Below the pieces are notes generated by a model. That model had not been told where the DNA came from. It saw only the letters and a list, made by a program, of their open reading frames with translations, and searched no databases. From Patescibacteria group bacterium (GTDB lineage: Bacteria > Patescibacteriota > Saccharimonadia > CAILAD01 > GCA-016700035): 43,717 nucleotides of DNA. Shown here one piece after another: positions 1-43,717 of the stretch (the first letter of the stretch is position 1; the number at the start of each line of letters is the position of its first letter). The position numbers and the translations under genes were made by a program. Location: positions 1 to 43,717 of the forward strand of contig JAUPVH010000001.1 in NCBI GenBank assembly GCA_030917125.1. Reading direction: 5' to 3'.

Positions 1-217
1 GGCGATATTGCGAATATGTTTGGCGTCGTGCATGAGTTTCTCTAAAGTTAGTTAGTATTGCGACAAAAAAAGAGCCCCAAGGGCTGTCTTGCTATGCATT
101 ATTATGCCACAGATATATAAAAAAGTCTAATCTTTATTGTTTTTAACTGATTTACAGGAGTATGATGACCTTAAGCATCTTAAGACTAGGTGCAGCACCA
201 AGAAAAAGGAGAGAAGG

Positions 218-631
218 ATGGCACTTATCAGGGCAACTTGCTCAGATTGTGGTGATATCGAGCTGCGGTCTCGAGACATTCTGATTCGGACGTGCGAAGA
301 ACGGGATGAGTCGACTTACGTATTTCGGTGTCCTGTGTGTCGAATGATCGAAGCGCGATATGCGGAGCCACACGTAGTAGATGTGTTGTTGGCAGCTGGT
401 TGCGACAGTGAGACATGGCGTTTGCCGTCGGAACTGAACGATCCACGCAGAAAGGATGGCTTGCGGGTAACGCACGATGATTTGCTGGATTTTCATTGGT
501 TCCTTGCAGACGCCACCACGGCCCAGGTCATCGAGACTGCACGTCCGGTGAGCGCCGAAGATCAGGAGAGGTTCTTCACGGAGCTGCAACACGCTGACAG
601 TGACACCATCGCGCGCGAGCTGAACATCTGA
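218..631 (+). CDS. hypothetical zinc-ribbon protein, 137 aa (GC-rich cassette)
   Basis: Track ORF 137..631 trimmed to ATG 218, which has AGGAG at 208-212. Contains CSDC...CPVC cysteine pairs. Third codon positions are G/C-biased, unlike the neighbours. A terminator hairpin follows. Confidence 0.55.
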   Translation: MALIRATCSDCGDIELRSRDILIRTCEERDESTYVFRCPVCRMIEARYAEPHVVDVLLAAGCDSETWRLPSELNDPRRKDGLRVTHDDLLDFHWFLADATTAQVIETARPVSAEDQERFFTELQHADSDTIARELNI

Positions 632-651
632 TCGGCGCCATCCTCCATTAA

Positions 652-693
652 AGGGCATGTACTTGCACTACCTGCAAGCCTGCCCTCTTTTCT
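652..693 (+). terminator. intrinsic terminator after cassette ORF
   Basis: Outer stem agggca/tgccct and inner stem cttgca/tgcaag, followed by cttttctt. Confidence 0.5.
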
Positions 694-716
694 TGCAGTG
701 AGACCAAGCCGCTTAA

Positions 717-745
717 GATTGACGTTTATACCTATAAACCGTATA
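717..745 (+). promoter_or_regulatory. sigma70-like promoter upstream of the rpf-like gene
   Basis: ttgacg (717-722), 17-nt spacer, tataat (740-745). About 150 nt of leader precede the first plausible start. Confidence 0.45.
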
Positions 746-893
746 ATTTGCCTCAGTAAAACAAACTGTTTTTGTACAAAATAGTGAGATGAGGTAACGG
801 AGTATACGTACTCAAAATACTGGCGCGGCTTTAAGGTGGCGTCAAAAAATTCAACTTGTTCAGCAGGAACTGATAACAAAACGAAATCGTTTT

Positions 894-2111
894 GTGGCTC
901 GGCGTATCCGGCCATTATTGTGGCATCCGCATACTTATGCTGTACGTCAGAAGGCTGAAATCGGCTTGTTTCATCTGGAGCGGGCTGGCATTCAGCGTTC
1001 GGTGGCTGCAATTGCTGCAGTCGTGACAGTATTGACACTGAGCTTGGTACTCACCGCCCAAACGAAGCATAGTTTTCGAGTGTTCGCCGACGAAAAACGT
1101 GTGGTGCAAATTTATGTGGATGGCGAGCAGCGCAATGTGGTTTCGAGCGCTTCGACCGTAAAGGATATATTGACCGAAAATGGCGTAGAAGTTCGCAAGG
1201 GTGATGTGGTTGAGCCGGAACTCGATACGGCTGTAGATCAGCCAAACTATAACGTGAATGTATATCGGGCTGCTCCAGCTGTTGTGGTGGATAGTGGTAA
1301 GTTTACACAAGTAGTAACTGGCTATCGGTCGGCGCGAAAGATTGCCGCTGCAGCTGGCGTTACGCTATATCCAGAAGATAAGGCCGAACTTGAGCAAGTG
1401 CAGGATTTCCAGCCGAGTCGTACCTTGGGTTATAAGGTTACGGTCGATCGAGCGGTGCCGGTGCAGCTGGTAGTTTCTGGAGAGTTGTATAATCTCCGCA
1501 CTCAATCTGCAACAGTAGGGGAGCTTTTACAGGAAAAGAAAATTGAGTATAGCCCCGAAGACCTCCAGGGGCTGACTGCAGAAACTGCTTTGACGCCAGG
1601 TGCGCGCGTAGTACTCTCTAAAATTGTGCAGGAAACGCAGGTAGTACTTGAGGACATTGCGCCAAATACGCAGACAATTTATGACGCCAACATGGAAGCT
1701 GGTAAGACTGAAACTCGCCGAGAGGGAGTTACCGGACGAAAACAGGTTACGTATTTGGTAGAAAAGACTCCAGGGCAACCAGATAAACGTAGCGTGCTCG
1801 ATGAAAAAGTGCTAGTGGGTTCAATTGACGCCATTGTGGTGCGGGGCACAAAAATCGTTACCCGCAGCGGTCAGCCTTCGCCTGAACAGTGGGCAAAACT
1901 TCGCTTCTGCGAAGCGGGTGGAAACTATGGCAATAAGCGTAACCCGCTCTATCGCGGTGCTTATCAATTTAATTACAGTACGTGGAATAACTATGGTGGA
2001 TACTATGACCCAGCCGACGCGCCACCAGAAGTCCAGGATGCGGCAGCTTTCGCGCTCTATGCTCGTCGTGGAGCACAGCCGTGGCCAGTCTGTGGACGCT
2101 ACCTCCGCTAA
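894..2111 (+). CDS. RpfB/YabE-like cell-wall protein (TM anchor, DUF348-like repeats, G5 domain, C-terminal resuscitation-promoting-factor transglycosylase domain)
   Basis: The C-terminus EQWAKLRFCEAGGNYGNKRNPLYRGAYQFNYSTWNNYGG...PWPVCG is the Rpf catalytic signature. The gene lies directly upstream of rsmA, as yabE/rpfB does in Firmicutes and Actinobacteria. The GTG start at 894 is uncertain. Confidence 0.8.
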   Translation: MARRIRPLLWHPHTYAVRQKAEIGLFHLERAGIQRSVAAIAAVVTVLTLSLVLTAQTKHSFRVFADEKRVVQIYVDGEQRNVVSSASTVKDILTENGVEVRKGDVVEPELDTAVDQPNYNVNVYRAAPAVVVDSGKFTQVVTGYRSARKIAAAAGVTLYPEDKAELEQVQDFQPSRTLGYKVTVDRAVPVQLVVSGELYNLRTQSATVGELLQEKKIEYSPEDLQGLTAETALTPGARVVLSKIVQETQVVLEDIAPNTQTIYDANMEAGKTETRREGVTGRKQVTYLVEKTPGQPDKRSVLDEKVLVGSIDAIVVRGTKIVTRSGQPSPEQWAKLRFCEAGGNYGNKRNPLYRGAYQFNYSTWNNYGGYYDPADAPPEVQDAAAFALYARRGAQPWPVCGRYLR

Positions 2112-2113
2112 GT

Positions 2114-9346: not shown

Positions 9347-9706
9347 CTAGGCCGTTTGGCTCATAGCCGAAAAGCGCTTGCTGACGGACTGGTAGCCGGG
9401 CTTGGTGCTGTCAGGGCACTCCTCCGGCTGCAGGTCATCTACTTCGATGTCGAGGTAAGCTGCGATGGCGTGACGTGGATCTTGTCTGGCCAGCTCGATG
9501 AGATGTTGTTCATCCTCAACATCTGGACTGAGCGTTCGCACAATCTGAGTGTTGTTGGGTGCCAGGATGTTCTTGGGGCTGCGGTGCCAGATGTCGAGCT
9601 GACCTCGATTGGTCTTGCACTGGAAGGCGCCGTCGATGCCTTCGGCAACGAAGAACGTTCGCGCGACGGCTTTGGGTAGCTGCAGCCAAGAGGCTTGGGT
9701 TGACAT
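9347..9706 (-). CDS. hypothetical protein, 119 aa (GC-rich cassette)
   Basis: Of the overlapping track ORFs, this frame has strongly G/C-biased third positions. GGAG lies upstream of the ATG. No motif recognised. Confidence 0.5.
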   Translation of the reverse strand: MSTQASWLQLPKAVARTFFVAEGIDGAFQCKTNRGQLDIWHRSPKNILAPNNTQIVRTLSPDVEDEQHLIELARQDPRHAIAAYLDIEVDDLQPEECPDSTKPGYQSVSKRFSAMSQTA

Positions 9707-12572: not shown

Positions 12573-12959
12573 TCAGCCGGTGAAGCTGATGGCCGTACCT
12601 CCGCCTCCGTTGGTCTGGGTGACCGGCGGCGGGGGCATCGGTGCCACGTAGGGCGGGAGCTTGCGCTCCTCGAACGCGGGCGGGATGAGCTCGAACTCGG
12701 GCAGCTCCGGCACGGTGGTGGTGACCGGCACGGTGGTTGTGGTCGTCTCGGTGACGACGGTTGTCGTGGTCGGCTGGACCGTGGTGGTGGTCTCCTCGAC
12801 GTATTCGGTGGTCGTCGTGACCTCGCAGTCGCTGACGTAGCACTGGTGCTCGTCCTCGTAGTACGAGGTGGCCCCGGCGTTGCCGCCGAAGACAGCGATG
12901 CCGATGAGGATGGCAGCCGCGGCCAGGAGTGCGAAGATCGCGCGTCGCTTCGTTGTCAT
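12573..12959 (-). CDS. secreted/anchored threonine-rich protein, 128 aa (GC-rich cassette)
   Basis: N-terminal signal/TM KRRAIFALLAAAAILIGIAVFG, then repeated TTTT(V/E) tracts and a PPPP segment. The G/C third-position bias picks this frame over the overlapping track ORFs. Confidence 0.6.
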   Translation of the reverse strand: MTTKRRAIFALLAAAAILIGIAVFGGNAGATSYYEDEHQCYVSDCEVTTTTEYVEETTTTVQPTTTTVVTETTTTTVPVTTTVPELPEFELIPPAFEERKLPPYVAPMPPPPVTQTNGGGGTAISFTG

Positions 12960-15606: not shown

Positions 15607-16440
15607 CTATGCTGCTTGGTTATTTCGACGTGCCCAACGAGTGAGTTCTCTGACGGATCGCGTTTGGGGTACCTCGACACCACGCTTACGCGCAGTTGCC
15701 TGAAGCTTCCAGAGGTCGATCCGATGCAGGTGAAGACTCTTGTCTGCGAAAAAGCGTGCGATGATCAGCATGAAGGTGAGCCAGAGCGCACCTACCGATG
15801 AGTTCGGTGCCGCGATGAGCAAGATGTAGGCCAGGATGAATGAAAGCGACTGGATGGTGAATTTCACCTTGCCGAAAACATTCGCTCCAGGCAATTCGAC
15901 ATCTCCCAGCGCGTCGACGGCCATCTTGGTGTCACGGGCGATCAGAACGAGCTTGAGCTCAATCCAGATTACCCATGATAGTGCGCCGAGCAATGGGAGG
16001 AAGGCGAGTAGTCCTTGAAGGTGCCAAGTCAGCACCAAGTAGGCGATGGCGAGCACCAAAATCAAGGTCTTGTCGGCGGCTGGGTCGATGGCTTTGCCAA
16101 AATCTGAGACTGCATTGAGGCGTCTCGCCAGTGGCCCATCAAGTCCATCCATAATGATGAGTCCGGCAGCAATCCCGAGCCATAGCCAGGCATCACTGGT
16201 ATTTTCGCGCCAAATTGCAGCACCCAACATGTACGCAACGTAGGGTGACACGATAATACGTGCGACCGACATGGCGTTTGGTACGTTGTCGATTGCTCGA
16301 GCGCTACTTGGCCAGTAATGCTTGATCACTAGGAGCCACCAACCCAACAGCCAGAACGCTGCCTGGTCGAGTAGCCATTTCACTTCTCGCACAACGGGCG
16401 GATCTTCACCGGAGTGATAGTCATAGCTTATGCTGTGCAT
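15607..16440 (-). CDS. CDP-alcohol phosphatidyltransferase family protein (GC-rich cassette)
   Basis: The signature D(x2)DG(x2)AR(x8)G(x3)D(x3)D is present as DGLDGPLARRLNAVSDFGKAIDPAADK. Multi-TM protein. Promoter-like ttgaaa-N17-gataat lies upstream on the minus strand. Confidence 0.8.
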   Translation of the reverse strand: MHSISYDYHSGEDPPVVREVKWLLDQAAFWLLGWWLLVIKHYWPSSARAIDNVPNAMSVARIIVSPYVAYMLGAAIWRENTSDAWLWLGIAAGLIIMDGLDGPLARRLNAVSDFGKAIDPAADKTLILVLAIAYLVLTWHLQGLLAFLPLLGALSWVIWIELKLVLIARDTKMAVDALGDVELPGANVFGKVKFTIQSLSFILAYILLIAAPNSSVGALWLTFMLIIARFFADKSLHLHRIDLWKLQATARKRGVEVPQTRSVRELTRWARRNNQAA

Positions 16441-26951: not shown

Positions 26952-26967
26952 AGCTTCGGTTCTACCG

Positions 26968-27002
26968 CCCCACCTCCGCTTGGAGGTGGGGCACATCTTT
27001 TT
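26968..27002 (+). terminator. intrinsic terminator
   Basis: ccccacctcc gctt ggaggtgggg (10-bp perfect stem), then cacatcttttt. Confidence 0.55.
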
Positions 27003-27082: not shown

Positions 27083-27159
<77 letters not shown>

Positions 27160-27349: not shown

Positions 27350-28408
27350 ATGTACGATCCATGGTTGAATGAACGGCAAGCAACTTCAAGCCGCGTTGAG
27401 GCAGAGGCTGCCCACGCGGCGCGCCAAGCGGCTAGCGTCCTAGGTCAGGAACAAGTCAGTCAGCAACTTGCTGAAGCACGAGCGATGGGCGAGCGACAAG
27501 CAATCGAAGCGGCACAGCGGCTTGAGGCTGAAGCTCACCATGTCCAACACATGCACTACTTGCAGGCGACCGGTCAAATCGGCGGTCATGCACCTGTAGC
27601 TGGTGTGAGTGGTATTTCTTCACCGTCTCAGGGCCTGCCAACACGGCCACCTCCTTACGTATCTCCTGACGAGAAAGCCGCCCGAGACCAAGCCATACTT
27701 GAACAGCAGCATGCTCATGCCCAAGCCAGGCTTGAAATGCAGCGCGCTCAAGCCGAGAGAGACGAGGCGGAAAGAATCCGACCTTTTCGAAGGAACCAGA
27801 AGCGAGCCCTGGCCGCAATACGTGAAAATGGTCCGGACCACTTGACTGGTGCCGAGATCATTCAGGCGGCAGTTTTGTTCCTGTCTACTGCATCTACTGC
27901 CTATCTGGGTATCAGCTTGTCGGTATTGCTTGTCACTGGTTCTTGGAGCGGTGGCTTCAGCTGGATGTGGATGTGTGCTCTGGTGGTTGCGCTGGTCATT
28001 CCAGTCACTCCTATAGTGCCGGGCTGGTTTGATTTCTCGGAAGGGCTGTGGCTCGTGTTTATTCCGATTCTGATCAGCACCCTGCATCACCAAGAAGAAT
28101 ATACCTTCTGGGGGATCGCGCCATTGTTGATTGTCGTCACTTTGCTCTACGTGGCTGTCTGGGTGATGAACCTGTTCGCCTGGCAAATCTGGGAGAAAAG
28201 TTGCCGCAGGGAGCGGAACCTACTTAGACAGAATCTGCCATGCGACTATTGCGGACGACCAGCAAAACACATTGTAATCACTGAGTCTTGTTTTGAAGGT
28301 GGCAGAATCACCGTTGTGGCTTGCTGGAAACATGGGTACTCGACTCCGTGGACTGAAGAACTCGAGGTTGCGCTCCTCGATAAAACTCTTCCGCCAAACG
28401 GACAGTGA
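27350..28408 (+). CDS. hypothetical membrane protein: Q/A-rich coiled N-domain, multi-TM core, C-terminal zinc ribbon
   Basis: ATG 27350 with a GAAGGGG Shine-Dalgarno. Hydrophobic block from about aa 170 to 280. C-terminal cysteine cluster in CDYCGRPAKHIVITESCFEGGRITVVACWKHG. Confidence 0.55.
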   Translation: MYDPWLNERQATSSRVEAEAAHAARQAASVLGQEQVSQQLAEARAMGERQAIEAAQRLEAEAHHVQHMHYLQATGQIGGHAPVAGVSGISSPSQGLPTRPPPYVSPDEKAARDQAILEQQHAHAQARLEMQRAQAERDEAERIRPFRRNQKRALAAIRENGPDHLTGAEIIQAAVLFLSTASTAYLGISLSVLLVTGSWSGGFSWMWMCALVVALVIPVTPIVPGWFDFSEGLWLVFIPILISTLHHQEEYTFWGIAPLLIVVTLLYVAVWVMNLFAWQIWEKSCRRERNLLRQNLPCDYCGRPAKHIVITESCFEGGRITVVACWKHGYSTPWTEELEVALLDKTLPPNGQ

Positions 28409-28413
28409 ACTCA

Positions 28414-28441
28414 CCGGGGGCTTTCTTAGGAGAGCCCCCGG
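28414..28441 (+). terminator. GC-rich terminator hairpin
   Basis: Stem ccgggggct/agcccccgg, then aatttgtta. Confidence 0.5.
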
Positions 28442-30022: not shown

Positions 30023-30047
30023 AAAAACCCCTCCAACGAGTGGAGGG
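30023..30047 (-). terminator. intrinsic terminator of the minus-strand methyltransferase (shared convergent site)
   Basis: Stem ccctcca/tggaggg. A T-run follows on the minus strand only. Confidence 0.5.
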
Positions 30048-30054
30048 AAGGGTG

Positions 30055-30810
30055 CTAGCGCTTTTCGGCGACGAAAAAGATGTCGCCACGCAGCAGATTG
30101 AGCTGAGGGCCGTAGTGGATCATCATCCGCAAGTAGTGCGTGATGATCTGGAGGTTGCGCCCGAGAGAACGGTGCGGAACGTCGTGGGTGGCCGCATCCA
30201 TTTCGCTCCGGAAACGTTGCCGTTGCCAGGGCCATGGCGAACCAGCAGCTACCACCGTGAAGCCGATGTGCTGAGTCAGCTGGTACAAGAGCGGCAGTGG
30301 CATGGGTCGCTTGTGGTCAGTGTCGAGCCAGAAGTTTTCGGCAGCCACGATGGGGTTGCGCATATTCGGCGTGACGATGACCATGCGACCACCTGAAGGC
30401 AGGTAGTCGTAGATGAGCTGGAGCAACTCGACCTGCTCATCGGCCTGGAAGTGCTCGATGAGGTGAGAGGCCACGATGGCATCGTACTCACCCGGATTGG
30501 CTTCGATGTGACCTTCCAGGAAGTCGAAGACCTCCCAATAGAGCACATCCAACTTTTGCTCGTCGAGCTTACGCACTTGTTCGGAGTTGTTGTCGATCCC
30601 GGTAACGCGTGTTCCGGCAGCCTCGAGTTCCTGCATGAGAAAGCCCTGGCCGCAGCCGAGGTCGAGCACGTGACTACGACCGCGCAGGTATGGAAAGATC
30701 ATGGCGATGTAGCTCATCGCGCCATCGCGGCCGCCGCTGAAGGCGTACGGATCTTGCTGTTTGCGGACGCCAACAGATTGCTGGCGCCTGATCTTCTCGG
30801 CGATTGACAT
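30055..30810 (-). CDS. class I SAM-dependent methyltransferase (GC-rich cassette)
   Basis: Motif I VLDLGCGQGF, then GIDNN, IVASHLIEH and GGRMVIVTP. Promoter-like ttgtct-N17-tatagt and a GGGGGA Shine-Dalgarno lie upstream. Confidence 0.75.
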   Translation of the reverse strand: MSIAEKIRRQQSVGVRKQQDPYAFSGGRDGAMSYIAMIFPYLRGRSHVLDLGCGQGFLMQELEAAGTRVTGIDNNSEQVRKLDEQKLDVLYWEVFDFLEGHIEANPGEYDAIVASHLIEHFQADEQVELLQLIYDYLPSGGRMVIVTPNMRNPIVAAENFWLDTDHKRPMPLPLLYQLTQHIGFTVVAAGSPWPWQRQRFRSEMDAATHDVPHRSLGRNLQIITHYLRMMIHYGPQLNLLRGDIFFVAEKR

Positions 30811-30900
30811 GGTGGTTCCCCCAGGGGTTCAAGGTGCGGATGAGTAGAAACTATACCATGCAGATAGCTCCAAGACAAGGAAAAGCGGTATACTAATGGT

Positions 30901-37835: not shown

Positions 37836-37864
37836 TTGACAAAAAACTTATTCTTTGCTATAAA
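37836..37864 (+). promoter_or_regulatory. sigma70-like promoter driving a GC-rich cassette
   Basis: ttgaca (37836-37841), 17-nt spacer, tataaa (37859-37864). Confidence 0.5.
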
Positions 37865-37924
37865 TAGCGGGTTATTGCATCTCGCAGTATCCGCACCCCA
37901 TACGAGACCCTTAGGAGGTCCACC

Positions 37925-38467
37925 ATGTCCGTCACGGACGAACCCCGAACCGAGAAGCAGAAGGCGGTCAAGTCACCGCCCCAGCCGATCGACGAGGACA
38001 AGAAGAAGAACAAGGACGTCGTTGTGATCTCCGCAGCTGTCGTCTTCATCTTTGCGTTCTTGGCGTTGGTAGTCTTCCTCAGCAACGTCATCAACATCTC
38101 GCCGGAGGTCAACTCCGCCGAGGACATCGCCACGGTCTACGACCACGCGATCGTCTTGCAGGCTCGAGAGGGCGACACCCTCGAGACCGCCTCGCTGGCA
38201 GTGTTCCCGAACACGCTCATCGAGCAGCGGGTCCGCGAGGACAAGCTCTCCGATGAGGCCAAGGCCCTGGAGTTGGCTCGGTACCAGGCCGAGTGGCTGC
38301 GCTTGTCGCGTCTACTCACCGGCACCACCGGCACCACGCTCACGGCCGGCGAGTTCTTCGCCGTTCCGGCCAAGCCGGACGAACCGGGTGCGATCGATGT
38401 CGATCGAGCACCCACGGAGATCCGTCGGCTCACCGAAGAGGCCCAGCAGGCTTCCTCAGGCGGCTGA
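37925..38467 (+). CDS. hypothetical single-pass membrane protein, 180 aa (GC-rich cassette)
   Basis: AGGAGG Shine-Dalgarno before the ATG. K/D-rich N-terminus, then TM helix VVISAAVVFIFAFLALVVFL. Very strong G/C third-position bias selects this frame over four overlapping track ORFs. Confidence 0.6.
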   Translation: MSVTDEPRTEKQKAVKSPPQPIDEDKKKNKDVVVISAAVVFIFAFLALVVFLSNVINISPEVNSAEDIATVYDHAIVLQAREGDTLETASLAVFPNTLIEQRVREDKLSDEAKALELARYQAEWLRLSRLLTGTTGTTLTAGEFFAVPAKPDEPGAIDVDRAPTEIRRLTEEAQQASSGG

Positions 38468-38485
38468 CCCTCGGGTCGGCAATCA

Positions 38486-38534
38486 GCCCGCGTGCTTTCC
38501 TCCCCCAGGAGAGAGCACGCGGGCATTCTTTTTT
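38486..38534 (+). terminator. intrinsic terminator
   Basis: Stem gcccgcgtgct/agcacgcgggc (11 bp) with an inner tcct/agga extension, followed by attctttttt. Confidence 0.7.
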
Positions 38535-38553
38535 CTTAGACACTTTCAATATG

Positions 38554-39362: not shown

Positions 39363-39391
39363 TTGACAAATAAGTAATGCTTGTGTATAAT
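39363..39391 (+). promoter_or_regulatory. consensus promoter with no ORF behind it
   Basis: ttgaca (39363-39368), 17-nt spacer, tataat (39386-39391). Confidence 0.55.
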
Positions 39392-39397
39392 TCGAGC

Positions 39398-39805
39398 GTT
39401 GCTAGCAAAAGCAAGAGGTAAGCCAGTCTTCCTCTGGCTGAGCTGAGACTGGGAGGAAGTTACTTCCAGCCTGCCTAACGGCACAACATGACCCGAAAGG
39501 GGTATTGTGATGGGCGAGTTCACCTGAGCTTCCATCCGAACGTCGGCAACGACATCCAGAGGCTTCGCTCGAAAGCCGAACCTGATCTAGCGTAGAACGC
39601 CGGATCGAAGCATGACCCAAACTGCCAGGTGGCGCAAAAAAGTTGGGCGCGCTTGCTCGACATCCTTGAATTAAGCAGCAAATAACGCAAAAAAGACAGG
39701 AAGAAGAGCATCAAATCGAGCATCGGGGTGACCCCGTAACACGCGGGGTCACCCCTAAACATCTCTATTAAGAACTTATGCAAGACCTTAAACGGGTCTT
39801 TTTTT
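39398..39805 (+). ncRNA. candidate ~400-nt structured RNA of unknown class, bounded by its own promoter and terminator
   Basis: No credible ORF; only antisense low-complexity track ORFs. GNRA-capped hairpins (ccc GAAA ggg, gtcg GCAA cgac). ggaag tta cttcc. A 12-bp perfect hairpin 39725-39736/39744-39755. Terminator aagacc/ggtctt plus a T7 run at 39782-39805. Confidence 0.45.
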
Positions 39806-39946
39806 GTGTGTAATGACGGAAAATAATCTAGGTTACTCATAGTCAGCAAATTGTTGCTGATAGAGTTTATCAACAAATAGGCACTATTTTGCGGAATATA
39901 TGAAACTGTACTGATTGAGAGATAGGAGAAAAAATGCAAATAATAA

Positions 39947-39975
39947 TTGACAATAAGGTATGATATTGCTATAAT
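39947..39975 (+). promoter_or_regulatory. consensus promoter of the GC-rich three-gene operon
   Basis: ttgaca (39947-39952), 17-nt spacer, tataat (39970-39975). Confidence 0.55.
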
Positions 39976-40066
39976 CTCATAGATCTGTCAACCCCGCTTA
40001 GCGCGGGTGTAGATGGATGCAACTTCGCAAATCCAATCCCAATTCCACCCATCAAGGAGTCCCAAC

Positions 40067-40768
40067 GTGTCCAACGACACCAGCAACGAGACCAGCCTGG
40101 CAGTTCCCGCACCATCGCGTCGCGCGCTCGCGCTCGTCGAGATGACCGAGACTGTCCAGGAGCTCATCGACACCCACGGCGTCGAGCTCGACATCCCTGT
40201 CGAGCAGGTCGCCAGCATGGCGGTGGAGCGCAAGCTCTCCGTCGAAGAGGTCGACGCTTTGCTCCTGGCTCGCCAGGACTACGCCGCCCGCTTCCCGGTG
40301 ATGGATCTGCTGCTTCGCAGCGGCTTCACCACCGATCAGATCCATGCGGCCTACGCCTTCGTGGATCAGCATGACCTCGAGCAGGATCGCAAGATCGAGG
40401 CTGCGCCCATCTCGGGCGTGGTCGAGGAGCCCGAGAGTCTGGCCGACCTGGTGCGTCGTTCGACCACCGAGCCGGCCCGTGCCCGCGAGCATGAGGGTGC
40501 GACCGAGATGGACGTGAATCGTCGTCACAAGTACGTGGCGATGATCGCAACCTGGTTCGCAACCTTCGACGTCTTCGACGACCTCGCTGAGGATCTCGAT
40601 GGCGCCATCAGTCTGTTGACCGACCTCGCCGCCAAGGCGCGCGAGGCGCGTTTCGTCAAGGCCGAGATGAACGACCTCGATGTACTCACGAGACTGCTGG
40701 TTCGAGTTCAGGGCCAGGGTATCGAGACGTACGACGGGGTCCTCCGACTCTTCGCCGAAAGGAGCTGA
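40067..40768 (+). CDS. hypothetical acidic protein (GC-rich operon, gene 1)
   Basis: GTG 40067 has an AAGGAG Shine-Dalgarno at 40054-40059 (the track start ATG 40013 is possible but lacks one). Third-position G/C bias selects this frame over the antisense and alternative ORFs. No motif recognised. Confidence 0.5.
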   Translation: MSNDTSNETSLAVPAPSRRALALVEMTETVQELIDTHGVELDIPVEQVASMAVERKLSVEEVDALLLARQDYAARFPVMDLLLRSGFTTDQIHAAYAFVDQHDLEQDRKIEAAPISGVVEEPESLADLVRRSTTEPARAREHEGATEMDVNRRHKYVAMIATWFATFDVFDDLAEDLDGAISLLTDLAAKAREARFVKAEMNDLDVLTRLLVRVQGQGIETYDGVLRLFAERS

Positions 40769-40773
40769 AGAAC

Positions 40774-41874
40774 ATGACGGGAATCAACCCGTTTCTGGTG
40801 CTCGGTCTGAACGTGACGGTGCTGGGGGGATTGTCCGATGAGGACATCCTCCAGCTCGCCAAGAGTCAGTACCGAGCACTCTCGCAGATCCATCACCCCG
40901 ATCGCGGTGGTGATGCCGATCTGTTCGCACTCCTCTCGGATGCCTACGAGTCCCTCCAGGACTCACGGGCCCGTCAGGAGAAGCTCGAGGAGTACCGCAC
41001 CTCTCGTTTGGACCAGCTCACGCTGGTCCAGCAGGAGCTCACGGATCTCGAGCGTCAACGTCGACGAGATAATCGTCGACTTCGCCGACATACCGCCGAC
41101 TTCATGGCGGACTTCGTGCGGTCACAGCACACCGAGACGGCCCAGCCGCTCAACGTGCACGATCTCACGCTGGTCGTGCAGGATCGGCACTCCGACTTCA
41201 TGTCGGGGGCTCTGTCGACCGACGCTGAGCGGAACAAGGCGGAGTTCATCGAGCACTACACTACGCATGGCTTCAAGGTCGTGCGGCGCGTTGGTGGTCA
41301 CGTTTCGGTGGCAGACTTGCAGGTAATGCAGGTGATGCCATCGAGCGACTTCACGCCGGCCCGCTTCAAGCAGTTTGCTGCCGAGTTCACCCACGTCGGT
41401 GCCCGTAAGAAGGCGCCGTACCCCAGCTACAACAGCTGGTACCGGGTGGACCTTGAGTCGACTGAGGCTTACGAGAATCAGTTGCGACAGCTTGAGATTG
41501 AGGCAGAAGCCGAGGGTCGTACCCTCGAGGATGCCCCAATCGATCCGACGTCAGCGCTCTACTGCTACGAAGAGCAGTCGACAGAAGCGACCGACTGGGC
41601 GCTGATTGGCACACTGTCAGACGGCCTCATCGGAACCGACGCCAGGGGCGACGCTGCTCCTGGTGCAGCCATGGAGCGCATGCTCGAGTCGGCTGCCGTG
41701 CCGAATCTCCGCGAGGAGCTCGAGCGCGGTTATAGCTTCGAGCGGTTCCAGTACTACCTGGACCAGCTCGAAGCTGAATTCTCCGAAGATGGTTACCTTG
41801 TGGCCGCGCGCCTTGAGGACGACCAAATTCGGTTCATGCTGGTGGGGAAGATCGTCCCTCATCAGGAACTCTGA
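40774..41874 (+). CDS. J-domain (DnaJ-like) protein with an uncharacterised ~290-aa C-terminal region (GC-rich operon, gene 2)
   Basis: N-terminal INPFLVLGL...LAKSQYRALSQIHHPDRGGDADLFALLSDAYESL carries the HPD tripeptide in a J-domain helix II/III context. No Gly/Phe or zinc-finger DnaJ regions. AAAGGAG Shine-Dalgarno. Starts 5 nt after the gene 1 stop. Confidence 0.75.
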   Translation: MTGINPFLVLGLNVTVLGGLSDEDILQLAKSQYRALSQIHHPDRGGDADLFALLSDAYESLQDSRARQEKLEEYRTSRLDQLTLVQQELTDLERQRRRDNRRLRRHTADFMADFVRSQHTETAQPLNVHDLTLVVQDRHSDFMSGALSTDAERNKAEFIEHYTTHGFKVVRRVGGHVSVADLQVMQVMPSSDFTPARFKQFAAEFTHVGARKKAPYPSYNSWYRVDLESTEAYENQLRQLEIEAEAEGRTLEDAPIDPTSALYCYEEQSTEATDWALIGTLSDGLIGTDARGDAAPGAAMERMLESAAVPNLREELERGYSFERFQYYLDQLEAEFSEDGYLVAARLEDDQIRFMLVGKIVPHQEL

Positions 41875-41894
41875 GACACAACAAGGAGGACCAA

Positions 41895-42182
41895 GTGGGA
41901 CGAACCCCGCGACGCACCCCCACAAAGGAGGAGCTCGACAAGTGGGAGCAGCTGCTGGCCGGCGACGGCCTGGCAGCAATCCCCGACGAGCACCCTGATG
42001 AAGGGGAACCACCAACCGAGTTCGAAGTCGGTCTCGGCTCCGCGTCAGCTCCCCCTGACGATGAGGAGTCCGAGGCTCTCGAACTGGGTGCGGATCTGCC
42101 CGATGGCATGGACGGTGAGGACGAACTCGTGGATGAACACGAGGGAGACCTCCACGCCTACATCATCGTGGACGAGGGCTGA
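41895..42182 (+). CDS. hypothetical highly acidic protein, 95 aa (GC-rich operon, gene 3)
   Basis: GTG start with an AAGGAGG Shine-Dalgarno at 41883-41889. D/E-rich sequence. The terminator follows. Confidence 0.5.
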   Translation: MGRTPRRTPTKEELDKWEQLLAGDGLAAIPDEHPDEGEPPTEFEVGLGSASAPPDDEESEALELGADLPDGMDGEDELVDEHEGDLHAYIIVDEG

Positions 42183-42205
42183 GCTTTCGAGTTCGGCTTC
42201 TCAAG

Positions 42206-42236
42206 CGGCCAGCGCATGCGCTGGCCGTTACTTTTT
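42206..42236 (+). terminator. intrinsic terminator of the three-gene operon
   Basis: cggccagcg catg cgctggccg (9-bp stem) followed by ttacttttt. Confidence 0.7.
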
Positions 42237-42409
42237 ACTGACGTACTCTGACGCATAATTAAGCTATCGATAATAAAATCTGACAAATAAATGCACTTTT
42301 TCATGCTGAAATTCAGTTTATTTATAGTTAAAATAACAGTTTTTATACGAAAATCTACAGATACATAGCTAGTTTTCAGCAAAAAATCATAATAAATTGA
42401 CAATAAGTA

Positions 42410-42438
42410 TTGACAAAAAATATAGCATATGCTACTAT
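42410..42438 (+). promoter_or_regulatory. promoter with an operator-like perfect palindrome in the spacer
   Basis: ttgaca (42410-42415; a second ttgaca at 42397-42402), 17-nt spacer, tactat (42433-42438). The 12-bp palindrome tagcatatgcta lies at 42423-42434. Confidence 0.45.
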
Positions 42439-42467
42439 ATCATCATTGTGAATTTCGTCAGGAGTTC

Positions 42468-42524
42468 ATGACAAAAAAGAACCTTTACTTTAGCTGGCTG
42501 GTGGTCATATTTTTGTGCGAGTAA
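42468..42524 (+). CDS. 18-codon upstream ORF / leader peptide MTKKNLYFSWLVVIFLCE
   Basis: AGGAG at 42460-42464, 3 nt before the ATG. The ORF runs through the 5' arm of the start-codon-sequestering hairpin. Hydrophobic peptide. Confidence 0.35.
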   Translation: MTKKNLYFSWLVVIFLCE

Positions 42525-42551
42525 CATATATCGCCTAAAAATATGACCACC
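42500..42551 (+). promoter_or_regulatory. 15-bp perfect hairpin sequestering the start codon of ORF 42543..42776
   Basis: ggtggtcatattttt (42500-42514) pairs with aaaaatatgaccacc (42537-42551). The ATG at 42543-42545 lies inside the 3' arm, and no Shine-Dalgarno precedes it. Confidence 0.55.
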
Positions 42552-42776
42552 ACATGCAACAGCATCACCCATGTCCATCCCCGGGCCCACCAGCCCCTCA
42601 ACAGGTACTGTGTCCACTGCGGTCGTCTCGGCCGAGCTCCGGAGTGCGCGAGCTGCCGTGAGGCCGCAACAGAGCCGAAGGAGGTGGACGACTACACGGG
42701 CTTCATCATCACCGACGACGGCGACGAGATCGGCCTGATCTCCGACCCGTACCGAGAGTGCATGGAGTTGGTGTAG
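42543..42776 (+). CDS. hypothetical small zinc-ribbon protein, 77 aa (GC-rich cassette)
   Basis: CVHC...CASC cysteine pairs, acidic C-terminus, G/C third-position bias. Confidence 0.5.
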   Translation: MTTTCNSITHVHPRAHQPLNRYCVHCGRLGRAPECASCREAATEPKEVDDYTGFIITDDGDEIGLISDPYRECMELV

Positions 42777-43717
42777 TCACTATCGAATAAGATTCGGGGT
42801 ACTTTGGTAGTGCCTGGCAACAGAAGTTGATCGGAGAGAAAAAGAATCCGTGACACATTAACCCGTCAGTGAAGACGTAAACCCCGAGCCAGTGAGATGT
42901 GGCTTTCAAGCGCGATTCCCGTGCAGCTCATACCCCTTCTTGGGGCAGATTACCTGCTCCAAGAAGGAGCAGTCCGAGGATAGTTATCCTCGCTGATGAG
43001 TCCTGATAGGACGAAACTGCTTTGAAAACTTAGGTAATCCCACGCTGGCTGTTATGCCACACGAGCGTATGTGCGCATTGCCTATCAATATTTTTCAAAC
43101 ACCACACATCAGTTTTTAGTTCTTTTAAACCTGGAAGCCTATACTTCCAGCGCGGCGTAGGCGGCGTTGTTCCTCGAGGGCAGTGCTCGCTCGCGTCGCG
43201 CCGGGAGTATAGCTTCCAAAGTACAAGGGCATCGAAAGCCATTCCTCTCTCCTCTCCAGGTGAGTAGGTGTCCTGCTGGGTCGAGTTCGTCTCGACCCAG
43301 CGAATTCGCTAACCGTTGACCCGCGTACGAATGCGGGGGCCTTTTGAAGCGAGAGCTACGCAGTTGCGTCCTCGAGTGAAACAGGCTGAGCCCATGCGTG
43401 TGGGCTTGCTGGGAGATAAAATTGGTAAAACTGCGCCTGCGTCGGTAACGACGACACCCCAAAGGGTGACCACGAAAGTGGTGGGAAGTAAACAAAGGTA
43501 GAAAAGGGGACCCCAACGGTTATAATGCGGTATTGTCTTCCCCTTTGGTCAGACCTTGAAAAAGTCTGGTTCTATGAAAGGACGATGCCGAGCTCGCGCG
43601 ACTTCCACACCCTTCACCCTTCCTCTTCGTGGAGGTCGCTGCGCGCCGGGAGTGCCGCTTGTGGTTTCTAAGGCTTCGGTCTTGATCACTTGCGTCCACA
43701 CTGTGGGGTAATAGCAC
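42777..43717 (+). other. ORF-poor, hairpin-dense GC-rich region (candidate large structured RNA or RNAs), truncated by the window end
   Basis: The only track ORFs here are low-complexity and Arg/Ser/Pro-rich. Long-range pair tcggggt (42793-42799) with accccga (42880-42886). Hairpins at 43021-43099, 43133-43217, 43276-43300, 43320-43345 (terminator-like) and about 43591-43650. CU-rich tracts at 43243-43257 and 43607-43628. Confidence 0.4.
42969..43020 (+). ncRNA. type III hammerhead self-cleaving ribozyme
   Basis: gcagUC / cgaggat-aguu-auccucg (stem I) / CUGAUGA / gucc-ugaua-ggac (stem II) / GAAA / cugc (stem III, open). All invariant core positions are present. The predicted cleavage site is after C42974. 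Confidence 0.8.

What the first reader, a model, noticed from the sequence alone, without database searches (positions are those of the whole stretch)
1..43717. Housekeeping backbone peppered with about a dozen GC-rich single-gene or small-operon cassettes wired to native-style promoters
By eye the backbone genes sit near 40-50% GC: a 60-nt metG sample counted 38%. Blocks at about 200-700, 9100-9730, 12525-12965, 15005-16445, 17880-18262, 25940-27000, 27335-28450, 30020-30830, 37880-38535, 39985-42240 and 42543-end jump to roughly 55-70% GC, and a 60-nt sample at 40081-40140 counted 70%. These blocks also show strong G/C third-position bias. Each block sits exactly at an operon boundary and carries its own strong Shine-Dalgarno site, whereas native genes are often leaderless. 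Each ends in a GC-rich terminator hairpin yet is preceded by an AT-rich TTGACA-N17-TATAAT promoter like the native ones. I recognised no integrase, transposase or flanking direct repeats. The pattern suggests repeated acquisition and domestication of genes from a high-GC donor. If this is an epibiotic Saccharibacteria-like organism, the Actinomycetota host or its phages are the obvious candidates. The products are enriched in small membrane, zinc-ribbon and surface proteins.
Basis: partly seen in the sequence, partly recalled or inferred. Interest (0 to 1): 0.75.

Follow-up and report, generated by a model that had tools for sequence, protein, structure and literature searches.

The report
Stable GC-rich codon dialect in Saccharibacteria cassettes
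In this Saccharibacteria genome piece, small self-contained genes wedged between housekeeping operons use a markedly GC-rich codon style, but relatives show this is a long-standing property of those genes, not a trace of recent gene theft from the high-GC host.

Summary
The compositional contrast is real. DNA outside the eleven blocks is 47.9% GC and the blocks are 54-67%. Nine ORFs have GC3 of 0.70-0.90 against a backbone of 0.435 ± 0.044 (z = 5-11 each). They are autonomous units with a consensus sigma-70 promoter, usually an SD leader, and an intrinsic terminator. They sit between largely leaderless housekeeping operons of a Saccharibacteria (CPR) chromosome.

The proposed origin, recent import from Actinomycetota or their phages, is not supported.
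- Seven of the eleven blocks (2, 3, 4, 6, 8, 9, 11) have orthologues at the same loci in relatives whose synonymous sites are saturated.
- Those orthologues stay above their own backbone GC3, by 8 to about 35 points, whether that backbone is 0.35 or 0.55.
- The three cassette proteins searched have homologues only in related Saccharibacteria or unnamed contigs. None is in phage, plasmid or viral collections.
- Independent assemblies reproduce the junctions.

Genuine gene turnover exists for blocks 5, 7, 10 and part of 6. Block 7's homologue lies between tRNA-Ala direct repeats in one relative.

The best reading is a stationary, gene-class-specific codon dialect, probably maintained by selection on synonymous sites. 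The cause is unproven.

Side finds include a conserved type III hammerhead ribozyme and an unclassified ~410-nt structured RNA.

The parts
218..631 (+). Block 1: 137-aa acidic protein with two CxxC motifs (zinc-ribbon-like) and a strong SD. GC3 is 0.57, a moderate excess.
   Evidence: (z=3.6). No family hit. Its region is not covered by the diverged relatives.
9347..9706 (-). Block 2: 119-aa ORF on the minus strand, GC3 0.68-0.69, followed by a terminator.
   Evidence: (z=5.5). The minus frame is conserved in L093/L094 (47% identity, E=2e-27), against 39% and E=1e-8 for the plus frame. The slot is empty or short in L095/L096.
12573..12959 (-). Block 3: 128-aa protein with a signal/TM segment and a Thr-rich region, GC3 0.90. 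Terminator at about 12517-12551 (minus strand).
   Evidence: (z=10.3). A 95-aa orthologue sits in the same slot in L093/L094 with GC3 0.79 against a backbone of 0.40. Absent in L095/L096.
15607..16440 (-). Block 4: CDP-alcohol phosphatidyltransferase. This is a core gene with a persistent GC3 excess.
   Evidence: Pfam PF01066 E=3e-20. It occupies the same locus in L093-L096, with GC3 0.59/0.60/0.74/0.88 against backbones of 0.40/0.40/0.54/0.52. It evolves fast: 72% aa identity to L093/L094 where FtsA is 94%.
17829..18262 (+). Block 5: perfect TTGACA-17-TATAAT promoter (17829-17857), 102-aa two-TM protein (17895-18203, GC3 0.77) and terminator.
   Evidence: (z=6.1). Window 17826-18734 (908 bp, together with the ORF at 18321-18728) corresponds to only 87 bp in L093/L094. 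No homologue is present in L093-L096.
18321..18728 (+). 135-aa three-TM ORF that came in with block 5. Its GC3 is backbone-like (0.47).
25945..26469 (-). Block 6a: 174-aa acidic ORF, GC3 0.58, with a terminator at 25956-25933.
   Evidence: (z=4.0). No homologue in L093-L096.
26504..26992 (+). Block 6b: promoter (26504-26532), 128-aa basic zinc-ribbon protein (26565-26951, GC3 0.76) and terminator (26967-26992).
   Evidence: (z=7.1). Orthologues lie upstream of tRNA-Ala in L093, L094 and L095, with GC3 0.62 and 0.69 in L093 and L095.
27083..27159 (+). tRNA-Ala(GGC), the anchor between blocks 6 and 7.
   Evidence: Conserved in L093-L096.
27350..28441 (+). Block 7: 352-aa protein with a coiled N-terminal part, TM segments and a C-terminal CxxC (GC3 0.51-0.53), plus terminator 28414-28441. 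This is a mobile-looking cassette.
   Evidence: Present in L094 but absent from L093, although both carry the identical FtsA protein. In L094 it lies between 86-nt direct repeats of the tRNA-Ala 3' half. The tRNA plus the 5' part is 87.5% nt identical against about 72% for the backbone. The first ~108 aa are about 97% identical and the rest is much more diverged.
30028..30878 (-). Block 8: SAM-dependent methyltransferase (30055-30810, GC3 0.75), terminator 30048-30028, promoter-like site 30878-30850.
   Evidence: Pfam Methyltransf_23 E=1e-18. z=10.0.. Same locus and orientation in L010, L091 and L092 (79/71/46% aa identity). Orthologue GC3 is 0.72/0.51/0.83.
37836..38535 (+). Block 9: promoter (37836-37864), strong SD, 180-aa single-TM protein (37925-38467, GC3 0.85) and terminator.
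   Evidence: (z=11.4). It sits between LeuRS and TrmB in L009, L091 and L092, with GC3 0.88/0.69/0.90. The family has only 10 representatives among 1.84 billion, and some are on Saccharibacteria chromosomes.
39363..39810 (+). Unclassified structured RNA gene of about 410 nt: perfect promoter at 39363-39391 and two terminator hairpins.
   Evidence: 113 predicted pairs, 24 with compensatory changes. No Rfam match at E<=1 in the window or E<=10 in L009.
39947..42229 (+). Block 10: perfect promoter (39947-39975) and a three-gene operon. The genes are 40013-40768 (251 aa, acidic), 40774-41874 (366 aa, J-domain with an invariant HPD motif) and 41895-42182 (95 aa, very acidic). Terminator at 42204-42229. 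GC3 is 0.70-0.79.
   Evidence: (z=5.3-11.5). Only 3 protein clusters exist among 5.8 billion. It always lies just downstream of TrmB plus the RNA in L090 and in a JGI contig, where it is also GC3-rich (0.62-0.65 against 0.35). Absent in L009 and L091.
42410..42776 (+). Block 11: promoter (42410-42438) and 77-aa zinc-ribbon protein (42543-42776, GC3 0.85). A 22-nt inverted repeat covers the start codon.
   Evidence: (z=7.6). Orthologues in L009 (3675-3902) and L091.
42967..43022 (+). Type III hammerhead ribozyme.
   Evidence: Rfam RF00008, 51.3 bits against a gathering score of 48.5, with an intact catalytic core. Also in L002 and L091 (50.4 bits). Stem II shows a compensatory change.
42860..43717 (+). 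GC-rich stretch with no convincing ORF around and after the ribozyme.
   Evidence: No convincing ORF. 81-90% nt identity to L091/L009 against 72-80% for the coding backbone. Internal 25-nt repeat at 43191 and 43636. No Rfam match.

Best explanation
The window is a highly syntenic Saccharibacteria chromosome segment. Conserved housekeeping operons are mostly leaderless or translationally coupled. The 'slots' between them hold small autonomous transcription units: a consensus sigma-70 promoter, usually an SD-containing leader, one to three short lineage-specific ORFs and an intrinsic terminator. These units use a second, GC3-rich codon dialect. Third-position T is replaced by C, and AAA by AAG.

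Shown:
- the contrast is statistically real;
- most units are old residents of their loci;
- their orthologues keep a GC3 excess over backbones of 0.35-0.55, although synonymous sites between these genomes are saturated;
- no donor outside the lineage was found for the cassette proteins searched.
The composition is therefore a stationary property of this gene class, not un-ameliorated foreign DNA.

Inferred: the dialect is maintained by selection acting on the sense strand at synonymous sites. That selection would be tied to how these genes are expressed, namely as strongly promoted, SD-dependent, monocistronic mRNAs that prefer NNC and AAG codons.

Superimposed on this is real gene turnover in the slots. 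Blocks 5, 7 and 10 and part of block 6 come and go between close relatives. Block 7 behaves like a small tRNA-Ala-associated insertion.
For: Reality of the contrast.
- Per-gene z = 5.3-11.5 for nine ORFs. AAG is 98% vs 49% in the backbone, TAC 96 vs 34, ATC 91 vs 22, TTC 86 vs 21.

Age and persistence.
- Blk8 and blk9 sit at identical positions in L010/L009, L091 and L092. CDP-OH transferase, blk2, blk3 and blk6b do so in L093-L096.
- In the ORF-extended tabulation of 25 orthologue instances, all but one lie above the local backbone mean. The exception, the over-extended L094 blk2 ORF, equals it, and the smallest excess is +0.08 for blk11 in L009.
- Backbone four-fold sites are 27-43% identical against 23-31% expected by chance. 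NG86 dS is 1.3 to undefined. YN00 dS of the cassette genes (1.5-2.4) is like the backbone (1.1-2.5).

Sense-strand specificity.
- Third-position (G-C)/(G+C) is at or below about zero in the strongly biased genes (-0.32 to +0.04) on either chromosomal strand. It is mostly +0.1 to +0.38 in the backbone.
- The change is mainly T3 to C3. This argues against a strand-symmetric process.

Expression signals.
- Two of the four perfect 12/12 promoters in the window drive cassettes (blk5, blk10), and blk9 has 11/12.
- SD motifs and strong terminators are present.

Lineage restriction.
- Only 3, 10 and 10 protein clusters are related to blk10b, blk8 and blk9. Named ones are Saccharibacteria, Patescibacteria or 'bacterium'.

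Turnover.
-.

Not chimeric.
-.
Against: - The link to expression level is untested. No ribosomal-protein or EF-Tu genes of this lineage were reachable.
- The housekeeping genes available show no bias: aaRSs, Obg, BipA and a partial pyrophosphatase have GC3 0.44-0.51. In a distant relative, S20 and S15 have backbone-like GC3.
- The cassette genes evolve 3-5 times faster at the protein level than their neighbours (dN 0.13-0.29 vs 0.03-0.08). This is unlike typical highly expressed genes.
- ENC of the class is 41.8. That is about as far below the GC3-only expectation (47.2) as the backbone is (52.7 vs 59.5). Most of the bias is therefore a plain compositional shift.
- TrmB has a perfect promoter but the lowest GC3 (0.37).
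- Strong translational selection is not expected in a small, slow-growing CPR genome (my own background knowledge).
- Blocks 1 and 5 could not be traced in relatives.
Confidence: 0.55

Rival explanations
1. One reading: genes were repeatedly acquired from a high-GC donor (the Actinomycetota host or its phages). They were then domesticated under native promoters and are still un-ameliorated.
For: - The codon usage of the class resembles that of a ~62-65% GC organism (C3 0.44, G3 0.34, AAG 98%, TAC 96%).
- The units are ORFans at operon boundaries, and some are presence/absence polymorphisms.
- Saccharibacteria are described as parasites dependent on a bacterial host, and HGT into them has been reported (PMC7427843). 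That their cultured hosts are Actinomycetota is my own background knowledge.
Against: - Seven blocks are syntenic in relatives at synonymous saturation, with the GC3 excess retained or even larger. For example, CDP-OH transferase is 0.88 in L096 and blk9 is 0.90 in L092.
- Neutral amelioration should have erased the signal.
- No homologue outside the lineage appears in 5.8 billion or 1.84 billion proteins for blk8, blk9 and blk10b.
- Nothing was found in PHROGs, PADLOC, phage, plasmid or IMG/VR collections.
- No integrase or transposase is present.
Confidence: 0.1
2. GC-biased gene conversion: the slots are recombination hot-spots (natural transformation, gene turnover). Biased repair of heteroduplexes keeps weakly constrained sites GC-rich.
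For: - The identity patterns are mosaic. TrmB is 64% identical to the sister genome but 92% to L091. The 5' part of blk7 is 87.5% nt identical against 72% for the backbone.
- Gene turnover occurs in the slots.
- The bias is largely compositional (ENC).
- The genes evolve fast.
Against: - The shift is sense-strand specific (C3 over G3, T3 to C3) whatever the chromosomal strand.
- NNG codons in four-fold families barely rise. A strand-symmetric process predicts otherwise.
- A 30-45 point GC3 gap is far larger than the differences I recall being reported within bacterial genomes (my own knowledge).
- Other fast-evolving or accessory genes have backbone or lower GC3: the 492-aa surface protein 0.36, p205 0.40, the 135-aa ORF 0.47.
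Confidence: 0.13
3. A lineage-specific mobile gene pool (an unrecognised Saccharibacteria plasmid, phage or satellite with higher GC) feeds the slots. It repeatedly overwrites the resident copies by recombination, so the genes always look 'foreign'.
For: - The blk7 homologue is flanked by 86-nt tRNA-Ala repeats in L094 and absent from L093, which carries the identical FtsA protein.
- Blk10 is patchy but always at the same insertion point.
- The promoter-ORF-terminator layout resembles phage morons.
- Raw four-fold identity in blk9, blk8 and blk7 is higher than in the backbone.
Against: - No mobility gene was found, and there is no match in IMG/VR, INPHARED or PLSDB.
- Identities of the methyltransferase and the CDP-OH transferase fall in step with the backbone, which looks vertical.
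- After correction for codon bias, dS of the cassette genes equals the backbone (YN00).
- Blk7, the most mobile-looking unit, has one of the weakest GC3 shifts (0.51-0.53).
Confidence: 0.15
4. Assembly or binning artefact: the GC-rich pieces are chimeric joins from a co-assembled high-GC organism.
For: The window is a MAG contig. It carries one probable error or strain-specific mutation, an in-frame TAG in LeuRS that is absent from three other assemblies.
Against: - The same junctions occur in at least 8 independently assembled contigs from different runs and a JGI metagenome at 97.9-100% identity.
- They also occur in a 48,987-bp Logan contig.
- Orthologous arrangements are found in a complete 916-kb chromosome and other long contigs.
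Confidence: 0.01

Closest known systems
Classical horizontally acquired genomic islands or islets (atypical GC, tRNA-linked, integrase-bearing)
   Same: They share atypical composition, location between conserved operons and ORFan content. Some units are presence/absence polymorphisms. One unit (blk7) lies next to a tRNA gene, and its L094 homologue has flanking direct repeats.
   Different: There are no integrase, transposase or repeats in the window. Most units are syntenic across deeply diverged relatives. No donor homologues were found. The compositional offset does not decay with time.
Phage 'morons' (single genes with their own promoter and terminator and deviant GC, inserted between conserved phage genes)
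   Same: The promoter-ORF-terminator architecture, the insertion between conserved co-linear gene blocks and the deviant nucleotide composition are the same.
   Different: These units sit in a cellular chromosome among housekeeping operons, not in a prophage. There are no phage genes nearby and no PHROG or viral matches.
Codon-usage class of highly expressed genes under translational selection (as in E. coli or Bacillus)
   Same: The gene-specific codon bias is conserved in orthologues. C is preferred over U in TTY, TAY, ATY and AAY codons. The bias is sense-strand specific, and promoter and SD signals are strong.
   Different: The members are fast-evolving lineage-specific small proteins rather than ribosomal or core proteins. 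The bias is mostly a bulk GC3 shift. Expression is unknown, and the effect is unusually large for a reduced genome.
Type III hammerhead ribozymes in bacterial intergenic regions (Rfam RF00008)
   Same: The catalytic core (CUGAUGA...GAAA, GUC cleavage triplet) is conserved, the three-stem topology is present and the score is above the Rfam gathering threshold.
   Different: It is embedded in a longer conserved non-coding region downstream of a zinc-ribbon ORF in a CPR genome. In the sister genome L009 a tmRNA gene follows the homologous region. The function there is unknown.

Membership tests
Recently acquired genomic island from a high-GC donor | Composition deviates from the host genome | tested here: met
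   Block GC is 0.54-0.67 against 0.479 outside. GC3s is 0.70-0.90 against 0.435.
Recently acquired genomic island from a high-GC donor | Absent from the same locus in close relatives | tested here: not met
   Not met for blocks 2, 3, 4, 6b, 8, 9 and 11, which are syntenic in L009/L010 and L091-L096. Met only for blocks 5, 6a, 7 and 10.
Recently acquired genomic island from a high-GC donor | Homologues in the proposed donor clade (Actinomycetota or their phages) | tested here: not met
   Blk8, blk9 and blk10b have only 2-10 related clusters, none labelled Actinomycetota. No PHROG, phage, plasmid or IMG/VR hits. The other cassette proteins were not searched against the large databases.
Recently acquired genomic island from a high-GC donor | The compositional offset decays with residence time (amelioration) | tested here: not met
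   The offset persists or grows in orthologues at dS > 1.
Recently acquired genomic island from a high-GC donor | Mobility machinery or flanking repeats | tested here: not met
   No integrase or transposase domains. No direct repeats around blocks 6-7 or block 10 in the window. Only the blk7 homologue in L094 has 86-nt tRNA repeats.
Integron gene cassettes | attC recombination sites and an IntI integrase with attI/Pc | tested here: not met
   No integrase domain. No shared imperfect inverted-repeat element at cassette ends. Each unit has its own promoter.
Moron-like autonomous units | Own promoter and own terminator flanking one or a few ORFs | tested here: met
Moron-like autonomous units | Resident in a prophage or phage genome | tested here: not met
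   The neighbours are aaRS, FtsA, Obg, Ddl, MurF and similar genes. No phage families were hit.
Translationally selected (highly expressed) codon class | Bias conserved in orthologues and specific to the sense strand | tested here: met
Translationally selected (highly expressed) codon class | Same dialect in ribosomal proteins, EF-Tu and chaperonins of the same genome | not testable with these tools
   No such genes of this lineage were reachable. The aaRSs, BipA and a partial Ppa are unbiased. S20 and S15 of a distant relative are unbiased.
Translationally selected (highly expressed) codon class | Codon-specific bias beyond what GC3 alone predicts | tested here: inconclusive
   ENC is 41.8 against 47.2 expected, a gap similar to the backbone's (52.7 vs 59.5). 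WWY codons are far more C-biased than SSN codons.
Translationally selected (highly expressed) codon class | High expression | not testable with these tools
   The only evidence is indirect: consensus promoters, SD motifs and terminators.
Hammerhead ribozyme type III (RF00008) | Conserved catalytic core and three-stem topology above the Rfam gathering score | tested here: met
   51.3 bits against 48.5. CUGAUGAG, CGAAAC and GUC are intact. Homologues score 51.0 and 50.4 bits.
Hammerhead ribozyme type III (RF00008) | Covariation in the stems | tested here: met
   Stem II changes from GUCC/GGAC to GUUC/GAAC in L091. Only three sequences are available, two of them near-identical.
Hammerhead ribozyme type III (RF00008) | Self-cleavage | not testable with these tools
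   Needs an in-vitro transcription and cleavage assay.

The most novel reading that the evidence does not exclude
The two codon dialects could be a built-in translational switch. Leaderless or coupled housekeeping genes use U/A-ending codons. A regulon of SD-led, strongly promoted small surface, membrane and zinc-ribbon genes uses C/G-ending codons. The output of the second set would then depend on the state of the tRNA pool or of wobble modifications (for example position-34 modifications reading NAY and AAR/GAR/CAR codons). That state could in turn track attachment to, and nucleotide supply from, the high-GC host. The dialect would be a conserved regulatory feature of the epibiotic lifestyle rather than a historical scar.
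Probability: 0.1. Interest if true: 0.8.

Novelty: new variant of a known kind. Interest (0 to 1): 0.45.

Why it matters
GC and GC3 deviation is routinely read as evidence of horizontal transfer. For CPR epibionts the host is the obvious suspected donor. Here that inference fails: the deviant composition is inherited with the genes over distances at which silent sites have turned over completely.

If this holds genome-wide, composition-based HGT calls in Saccharibacteria would need revision. It would also define a compact, recognisable class of lineage-specific genes. These have their own strong promoter, usually an SD leader, a terminator and a C-ending codon dialect, and they mostly encode small membrane, secreted or zinc-ribbon proteins. 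Such genes are natural candidates for host-interaction functions and for expression studies.

The work also gives a case for asking how a reduced genome maintains two codon equilibria.

Tried and rejected
- Family searches. Pfam, PHROGs, PADLOC and NCBIfam gave nothing for the cassette proteins beyond a generic SAM-methyltransferase, a CDP-alcohol phosphatidyltransferase and a sub-threshold J-domain.
- Phage, plasmid and viral searches. tblastn and blastn against INPHARED phages and PLSDB plasmids gave no real match. IMG/VR scans with blk7, blk10b and the ribozyme pattern found nothing.
- Metagenome scans. The scan with blk7 found nothing. The second scan, with TrmB, returned only five loci, all distant or short.
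- Structure. An AlphaFold model of blk10b from a 3-sequence alignment had mean pLDDT 58. Only the J-domain and a long helix were confident, so no fold search was run.
- RNA families. Rfam at permissive thresholds gave nothing for the GC-rich non-coding stretches or for the RNA at 39392-39810. I considered RNase P, 6S and SRP RNA and dropped them for lack of any hit.
- Target-site duplication around block 10. The only repeat is the AT-rich promoter context (ATAATAATTGACAATAAG) at 39931 and 42381, which I read as promoter consensus rather than an att site.
- GC1/GC2 against GC3 regression, to separate a foreign proteome from a silent-site shift. Cassette GC1 and GC2 (0.644/0.427) lie between native values and those expected for a donor, so the test is inconclusive.
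- Lower NG86 dS in cassette genes first suggested more recent exchange. It disappears with the codon-frequency-corrected YN00 estimate.
- Literature searches found no description of within-genome GC3 bimodality in Saccharibacteria.

Full report
WHAT THE WINDOW IS

The 43.7-kb window is a whole MAG contig; it is the longest contig recorded for several of its proteins. NCBI labels its proteins 'Patescibacteria group bacterium'. The closest species-level genome in GTDB is an 'uncultured Candidatus Saccharibacteria bacterium', with LeuRS 91-95% identical.

Pfam annotation gives a typical CPR housekeeping backbone. It includes:
- an RpfB-like protein, KsgA, a transglutaminase, MetRS, TatD, cysteine desulfurase, DUF218 and MnmA;
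- AlaRS, an FtsA-like protein, RuvX, YceG, a LysM-CHAP protein, Obg and a small-domain methyltransferase;
- Ddl, a Mur ligase, a C39-like peptidase, LeuRS and a TrmB-family regulator.

The same gene order is found in a complete 916-kb chromosome (CP064998.1) and in other long contigs whose FtsA is 94, 82 and 75% identical.

CHECKING THE OBSERVATION

Overall GC is 50.3%. DNA outside the eleven listed blocks is 47.9% GC and DNA inside them is 57.9%. Individual blocks run from 0.54 to 0.67. Against same-sized windows outside the blocks, five blocks reach z >= 3, five reach z = 2.2-2.9, and the first block reaches only 1.6. The 38% metG sample is unrepresentative, because metG averages 44%.

At the codon level the signal is much sharper.
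- Twenty-eight backbone genes have GC3s of 0.435 ± 0.044.
- Nine ORFs have 0.70-0.90: 12573-12959(-), 17895-18203, 26565-26951, 30055-30810(-), 37925-38467, 40013-40768, 40774-41874, 41895-42182 and 42543-42776.
- Each of the nine is 5.3-11.5 standard deviations above what backbone codon usage predicts for its amino-acid content.
- Five further ORFs are moderately shifted (z = 2.5-5.5).
- AAG is 98% of Lys codons against 49% in the backbone, TAC 96 vs 34, ATC 91 vs 22 and TTC 86 vs 21.

Two corrections are needed. The real genes of blocks 2 and 3 are on the minus strand. The stretches 15005-15600 and 42860-43717 hold no convincing ORF.

The architectural description holds up.
- TTGACA-N17-TATAAT promoters precede blocks 5, 6, 9, 10 and 11. 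Those of blocks 5 and 10 are perfect 12/12 matches.
- Most cassette genes have GGAG/AGGAGG motifs.
- All but the last block end in GC-rich hairpins followed by T-runs.
- Operon-first native genes (AlaRS, FtsA, Ddl, the Mur ligase, LeuRS, TrmB and others) have a -10 box 6-8 nt upstream of the ATG, so they are leaderless.
- No integrase, transposase or flanking repeats occur in the window.

The junctions are not chimeric. The stretch from 28.6 to 43.7 kb is reproduced in eight independently assembled contigs at 97.9-100% identity. The left part of the window lies on a 48,987-bp contig from another assembly.

TESTING THE HGT INTERPRETATION

(a) Synteny

- The sister genome (L010/L009) is collinear with window 30067-39769 at about 80% nt identity. 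This includes block 8 (the methyltransferase) and block 9 (a 180-aa single-TM protein).
- Two more distant relatives have the same order around these genes: methyltransferase, then a 118-122-aa ORF, Ddl, the Mur ligase, the C39 peptidase, LeuRS, the block-9 homologue and TrmB. L092 also keeps the second methyltransferase between C39 and LeuRS, and L091 lacks it. Their block-8 methyltransferase is 71% (L091) and 46% (L092) identical to the window's.
- The CDP-alcohol phosphatidyltransferase of block 4 is at the same locus in all four FtsA-anchored relatives.
- Blocks 2 and 3 are present in the 94% relatives.
- The zinc-ribbon gene of block 6 lies upstream of tRNA-Ala in three relatives.
- The zinc-ribbon gene of block 11 is present in L009 and L091.

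(b) Composition of the orthologues

- Block 9 has GC3 of 0.85, 0.88, 0.69 and 0.90 in four genomes whose backbones are about 0.44, 0.46, 0.40 and 0.55.
- CDP-OH transferase has 0.62, 0.59, 0.60, 0.74 and 0.88 against backbones of 0.44, 0.40, 0.40, 0.54 and 0.52.
- Across the 25 orthologue instances tabulated with ORF extension, all but one lie above the local backbone. The exception, an over-extended ORF, equals it.

(c) Time

- Between the window and even its closest relatives, backbone four-fold sites are 27-43% identical. Chance would give 23-31%. NG86 dS is 1.3 to undefined.
- With the codon-frequency-corrected YN00 estimator, the cassette genes have dS of 1.5-2.4, the same as the backbone.
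- Silent sites have therefore turned over completely, and the GC3 excess remains. It is an equilibrium property, not a remnant.

(d) Donors

- A search of 5.8 billion proteins finds only two other clusters for the J-domain protein of block 10 and nine for the methyltransferase.
- An exhaustive HMMER scan of 1.84 billion representatives finds ten for block 9.
- The few members that carry a name are labelled Saccharibacteria, 'bacterium' or Patescibacteria. Several lie on the same long Saccharibacteria contigs used above.
- PHROGs, PADLOC, INPHARED, PLSDB and IMG/VR give nothing.

That is what is found for seven of the eleven blocks.

WHAT REMAINS OF 'ACQUISITION'

The slots do turn over.
- Block 5 plus the adjacent 135-aa ORF (908 bp) corresponds to 87 bp in L093/L094 and has no homologue in any relative.
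- The 174-aa ORF of block 6 is unique to the window lineage.
- The three-gene block 10 is absent from L009 and L091. It is present, always immediately downstream of TrmB and a conserved RNA gene, in L090, L089 and a JGI contig. The proteins there are only 39-49% identical, and the operon is again GC3-rich (0.62-0.65 against 0.35).
- Block 7 is the most mobile-looking unit. It is present in L094 but not in L093, although the two carry the identical FtsA protein. In L094 it lies between 86-nt direct repeats (90% identical) made of the 3' half of tRNA-Ala plus 60 nt. The tRNA and the first ~600 nt are 87.5% identical to the window against about 72% for the backbone. The first ~108 residues are about 97% identical and the rest is far more diverged.
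- TrmB is also mosaic: 64% identical to the sister genome but 92% to L091.

Exchange therefore occurs, but as far as can be seen it occurs within the lineage.

WHAT MAINTAINS THE DIALECT

- The shift is specific to the sense strand. Third-position (G-C)/(G+C) is at or below about zero in the strongly biased genes on either chromosomal strand. It is mostly +0.1 to +0.38 in backbone genes. The change is mainly T3 to C3 (0.33 to 0.13 and 0.19 to 0.44), and NNG codons in four-fold families are almost unchanged. This speaks against a strand-symmetric process such as biased gene conversion. It points to a force acting through the mRNA or its translation.
- The preference is strongest in codons with weak first two bases (TTY, TAY, ATY, AAR) and weakest in GGN, CGN and GCN.
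- The units carry the best promoters in the window.

Several observations cut the other way.
- ENC of the class (41.8) is no further below the GC3-only expectation (47.2) than the backbone is (52.7 vs 59.5).
- The genes evolve 3-5 times faster than their neighbours at the protein level.
- The housekeeping genes available, including a partial pyrophosphatase and BipA just upstream of the window, are unbiased.
- TrmB, with a perfect promoter, has the lowest GC3.
- S20 and S15 in a distant relative are unbiased.

I therefore hold 'not recent Actinomycetota HGT' with high confidence, about 0.85. I hold 'selection on synonymous sites linked to expression mode' only as the leading candidate, about 0.4. 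Biased gene conversion and an unseen lineage-specific mobile pool remain live rivals. The decisive test is whether ribosomal-protein and EF-Tu genes of the lineage share the dialect.

FUNCTIONS

Only two cassette products have a clear family: a SAM-dependent methyltransferase (block 8) and a CDP-alcohol phosphatidyltransferase (block 4). The other cassette products are as follows.
- The 366-aa protein of block 10 has an N-terminal J-domain with an invariant HPD motif, followed by a long helix. The rest could not be modelled (pLDDT 58).
- Block 3 has a signal/TM segment and a Thr-rich region.
- Blocks 5, 7 and 9 have TM segments.
- Blocks 1, 6, 7 and 11 have CxxC motifs.

OTHER FEATURES

- A type III hammerhead ribozyme sits at 42967-43022. 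It scores 51.3 bits, has an intact core, is conserved in L002 and L091, and shows a compensatory change in stem II.
- The ribozyme lies within a conserved non-coding stretch. In the sister genome the homologous region is followed by a tmRNA gene.
- A ~410-nt RNA gene at 39392-39810 has a perfect promoter and terminators. It is conserved downstream of TrmB in five lineages, has compensatory pairs and matches no Rfam family.
- LeuRS carries an inserted NUDIX domain. In this contig only, it has a CAG-to-TAG change at 37147.

VERDICT

The proposed origin is not supported. What is there is a stable second codon dialect, attached to a class of autonomous, lineage-specific small genes in the inter-operon slots of a Saccharibacteria chromosome, with some within-lineage turnover. 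It is a new variant of known intragenomic codon heterogeneity. It is of moderate interest, chiefly as a warning against composition-based HGT calls in CPR genomes and as a handle on candidate host-interaction genes.

Noticed in passing
window 42967-43022 (+); L002 7313-7369; L091 1363-1417 (-): A type III hammerhead ribozyme with an intact catalytic core lies about 190 nt downstream of the zinc-ribbon ORF. It is conserved in a relative about 81% identical in this region, with a compensatory change in stem II. It is absent from the sister genome L009. The predicted cleavage site is after GUC, at 42974/42975.
   Followed up: partly
window 42860-43717 and beyond (L002 8068-8704; L009 3914-4390; L091 about 690-890): This GC-rich stretch has no convincing ORF and is more conserved (81-90% nt) than the coding backbone. 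It has an internal 25-nt repeat (43191 and 43636) and matches no Rfam family. In L009 the homologous region is followed by a 115-aa GC3-rich ORF and a tmRNA gene (4751-5112).
   Followed up: partly
window 39363-39810 (+): A ~410-nt structured RNA gene has a perfect sigma-70 promoter and two terminator hairpins. It is conserved directly downstream of TrmB in five lineages. RNAalifold on three sequences predicts 113 pairs, 24 with compensatory changes. There is no Rfam match at E<=1 in the window or E<=10 in L009, so it is not recognisable as RNase P, 6S or SRP RNA.
   Followed up: partly
window 34954-37815 (+), codon 37147-37149: LeuRS carries an inserted NUDIX domain, which is also present in L092 but absent from L091. 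In this contig it is interrupted by an in-frame TAG. Three near-identical assemblies have CAG (Gln) there and an intact 953-aa ORF, so this is a strain-specific nonsense mutation or a consensus error.
   Followed up: yes
L094 19181-19266 and 20584-20669: An 86-nt direct repeat (90% identical) consists of the 3' half of tRNA-Ala plus 60 nt. The two copies flank the 351-aa homologue of block 7. The insertion is missing from L093, which has the identical FtsA protein. No integrase is nearby.
   Followed up: partly
window 38589-39350 (+): The TrmB-family regulator is leaderless behind a perfect promoter. It is phylogenetically mosaic: 64% identical to the sister genome (where LeuRS is 91-95%) but 92% identical to the more distant L091.
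   Followed up: partly
window: starts at 2967, 13093, 16541, 30901, 31294, 32331, 34954, 38589: Leaderless gene starts are pervasive. A TAnAAT-like -10 box ends 6-8 nt upstream of the ATG of operon-first housekeeping genes.
   Followed up: partly
window 42499-42552: A 22-nt inverted repeat (91% complementary) pairs across the start codon of the zinc-ribbon ORF 42543-42776. It could occlude translation initiation.
   Followed up: no
L097 1435-4698 (about 2.3-5.6 kb upstream of the window start): A UvrD/PcrA-type helicase gene carries intein (Hint/Intein_splicing) domains in a near-identical strain.
   Followed up: no
L091 12568-14907 (-): In a relative, a ribonucleotide reductase gene has GC3 of 0.69 against a backbone of 0.40. 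The GC3-rich class is therefore not limited to small ORFans in every genome.
   Followed up: no
window 15005-15600: About 600 bp between AlaRS and the CDP-OH transferase has flat GC across codon positions and no convincing ORF. At most it holds a ~36-aa TM peptide within 15042-15242 (-). The slot content differs in every relative.
   Followed up: no
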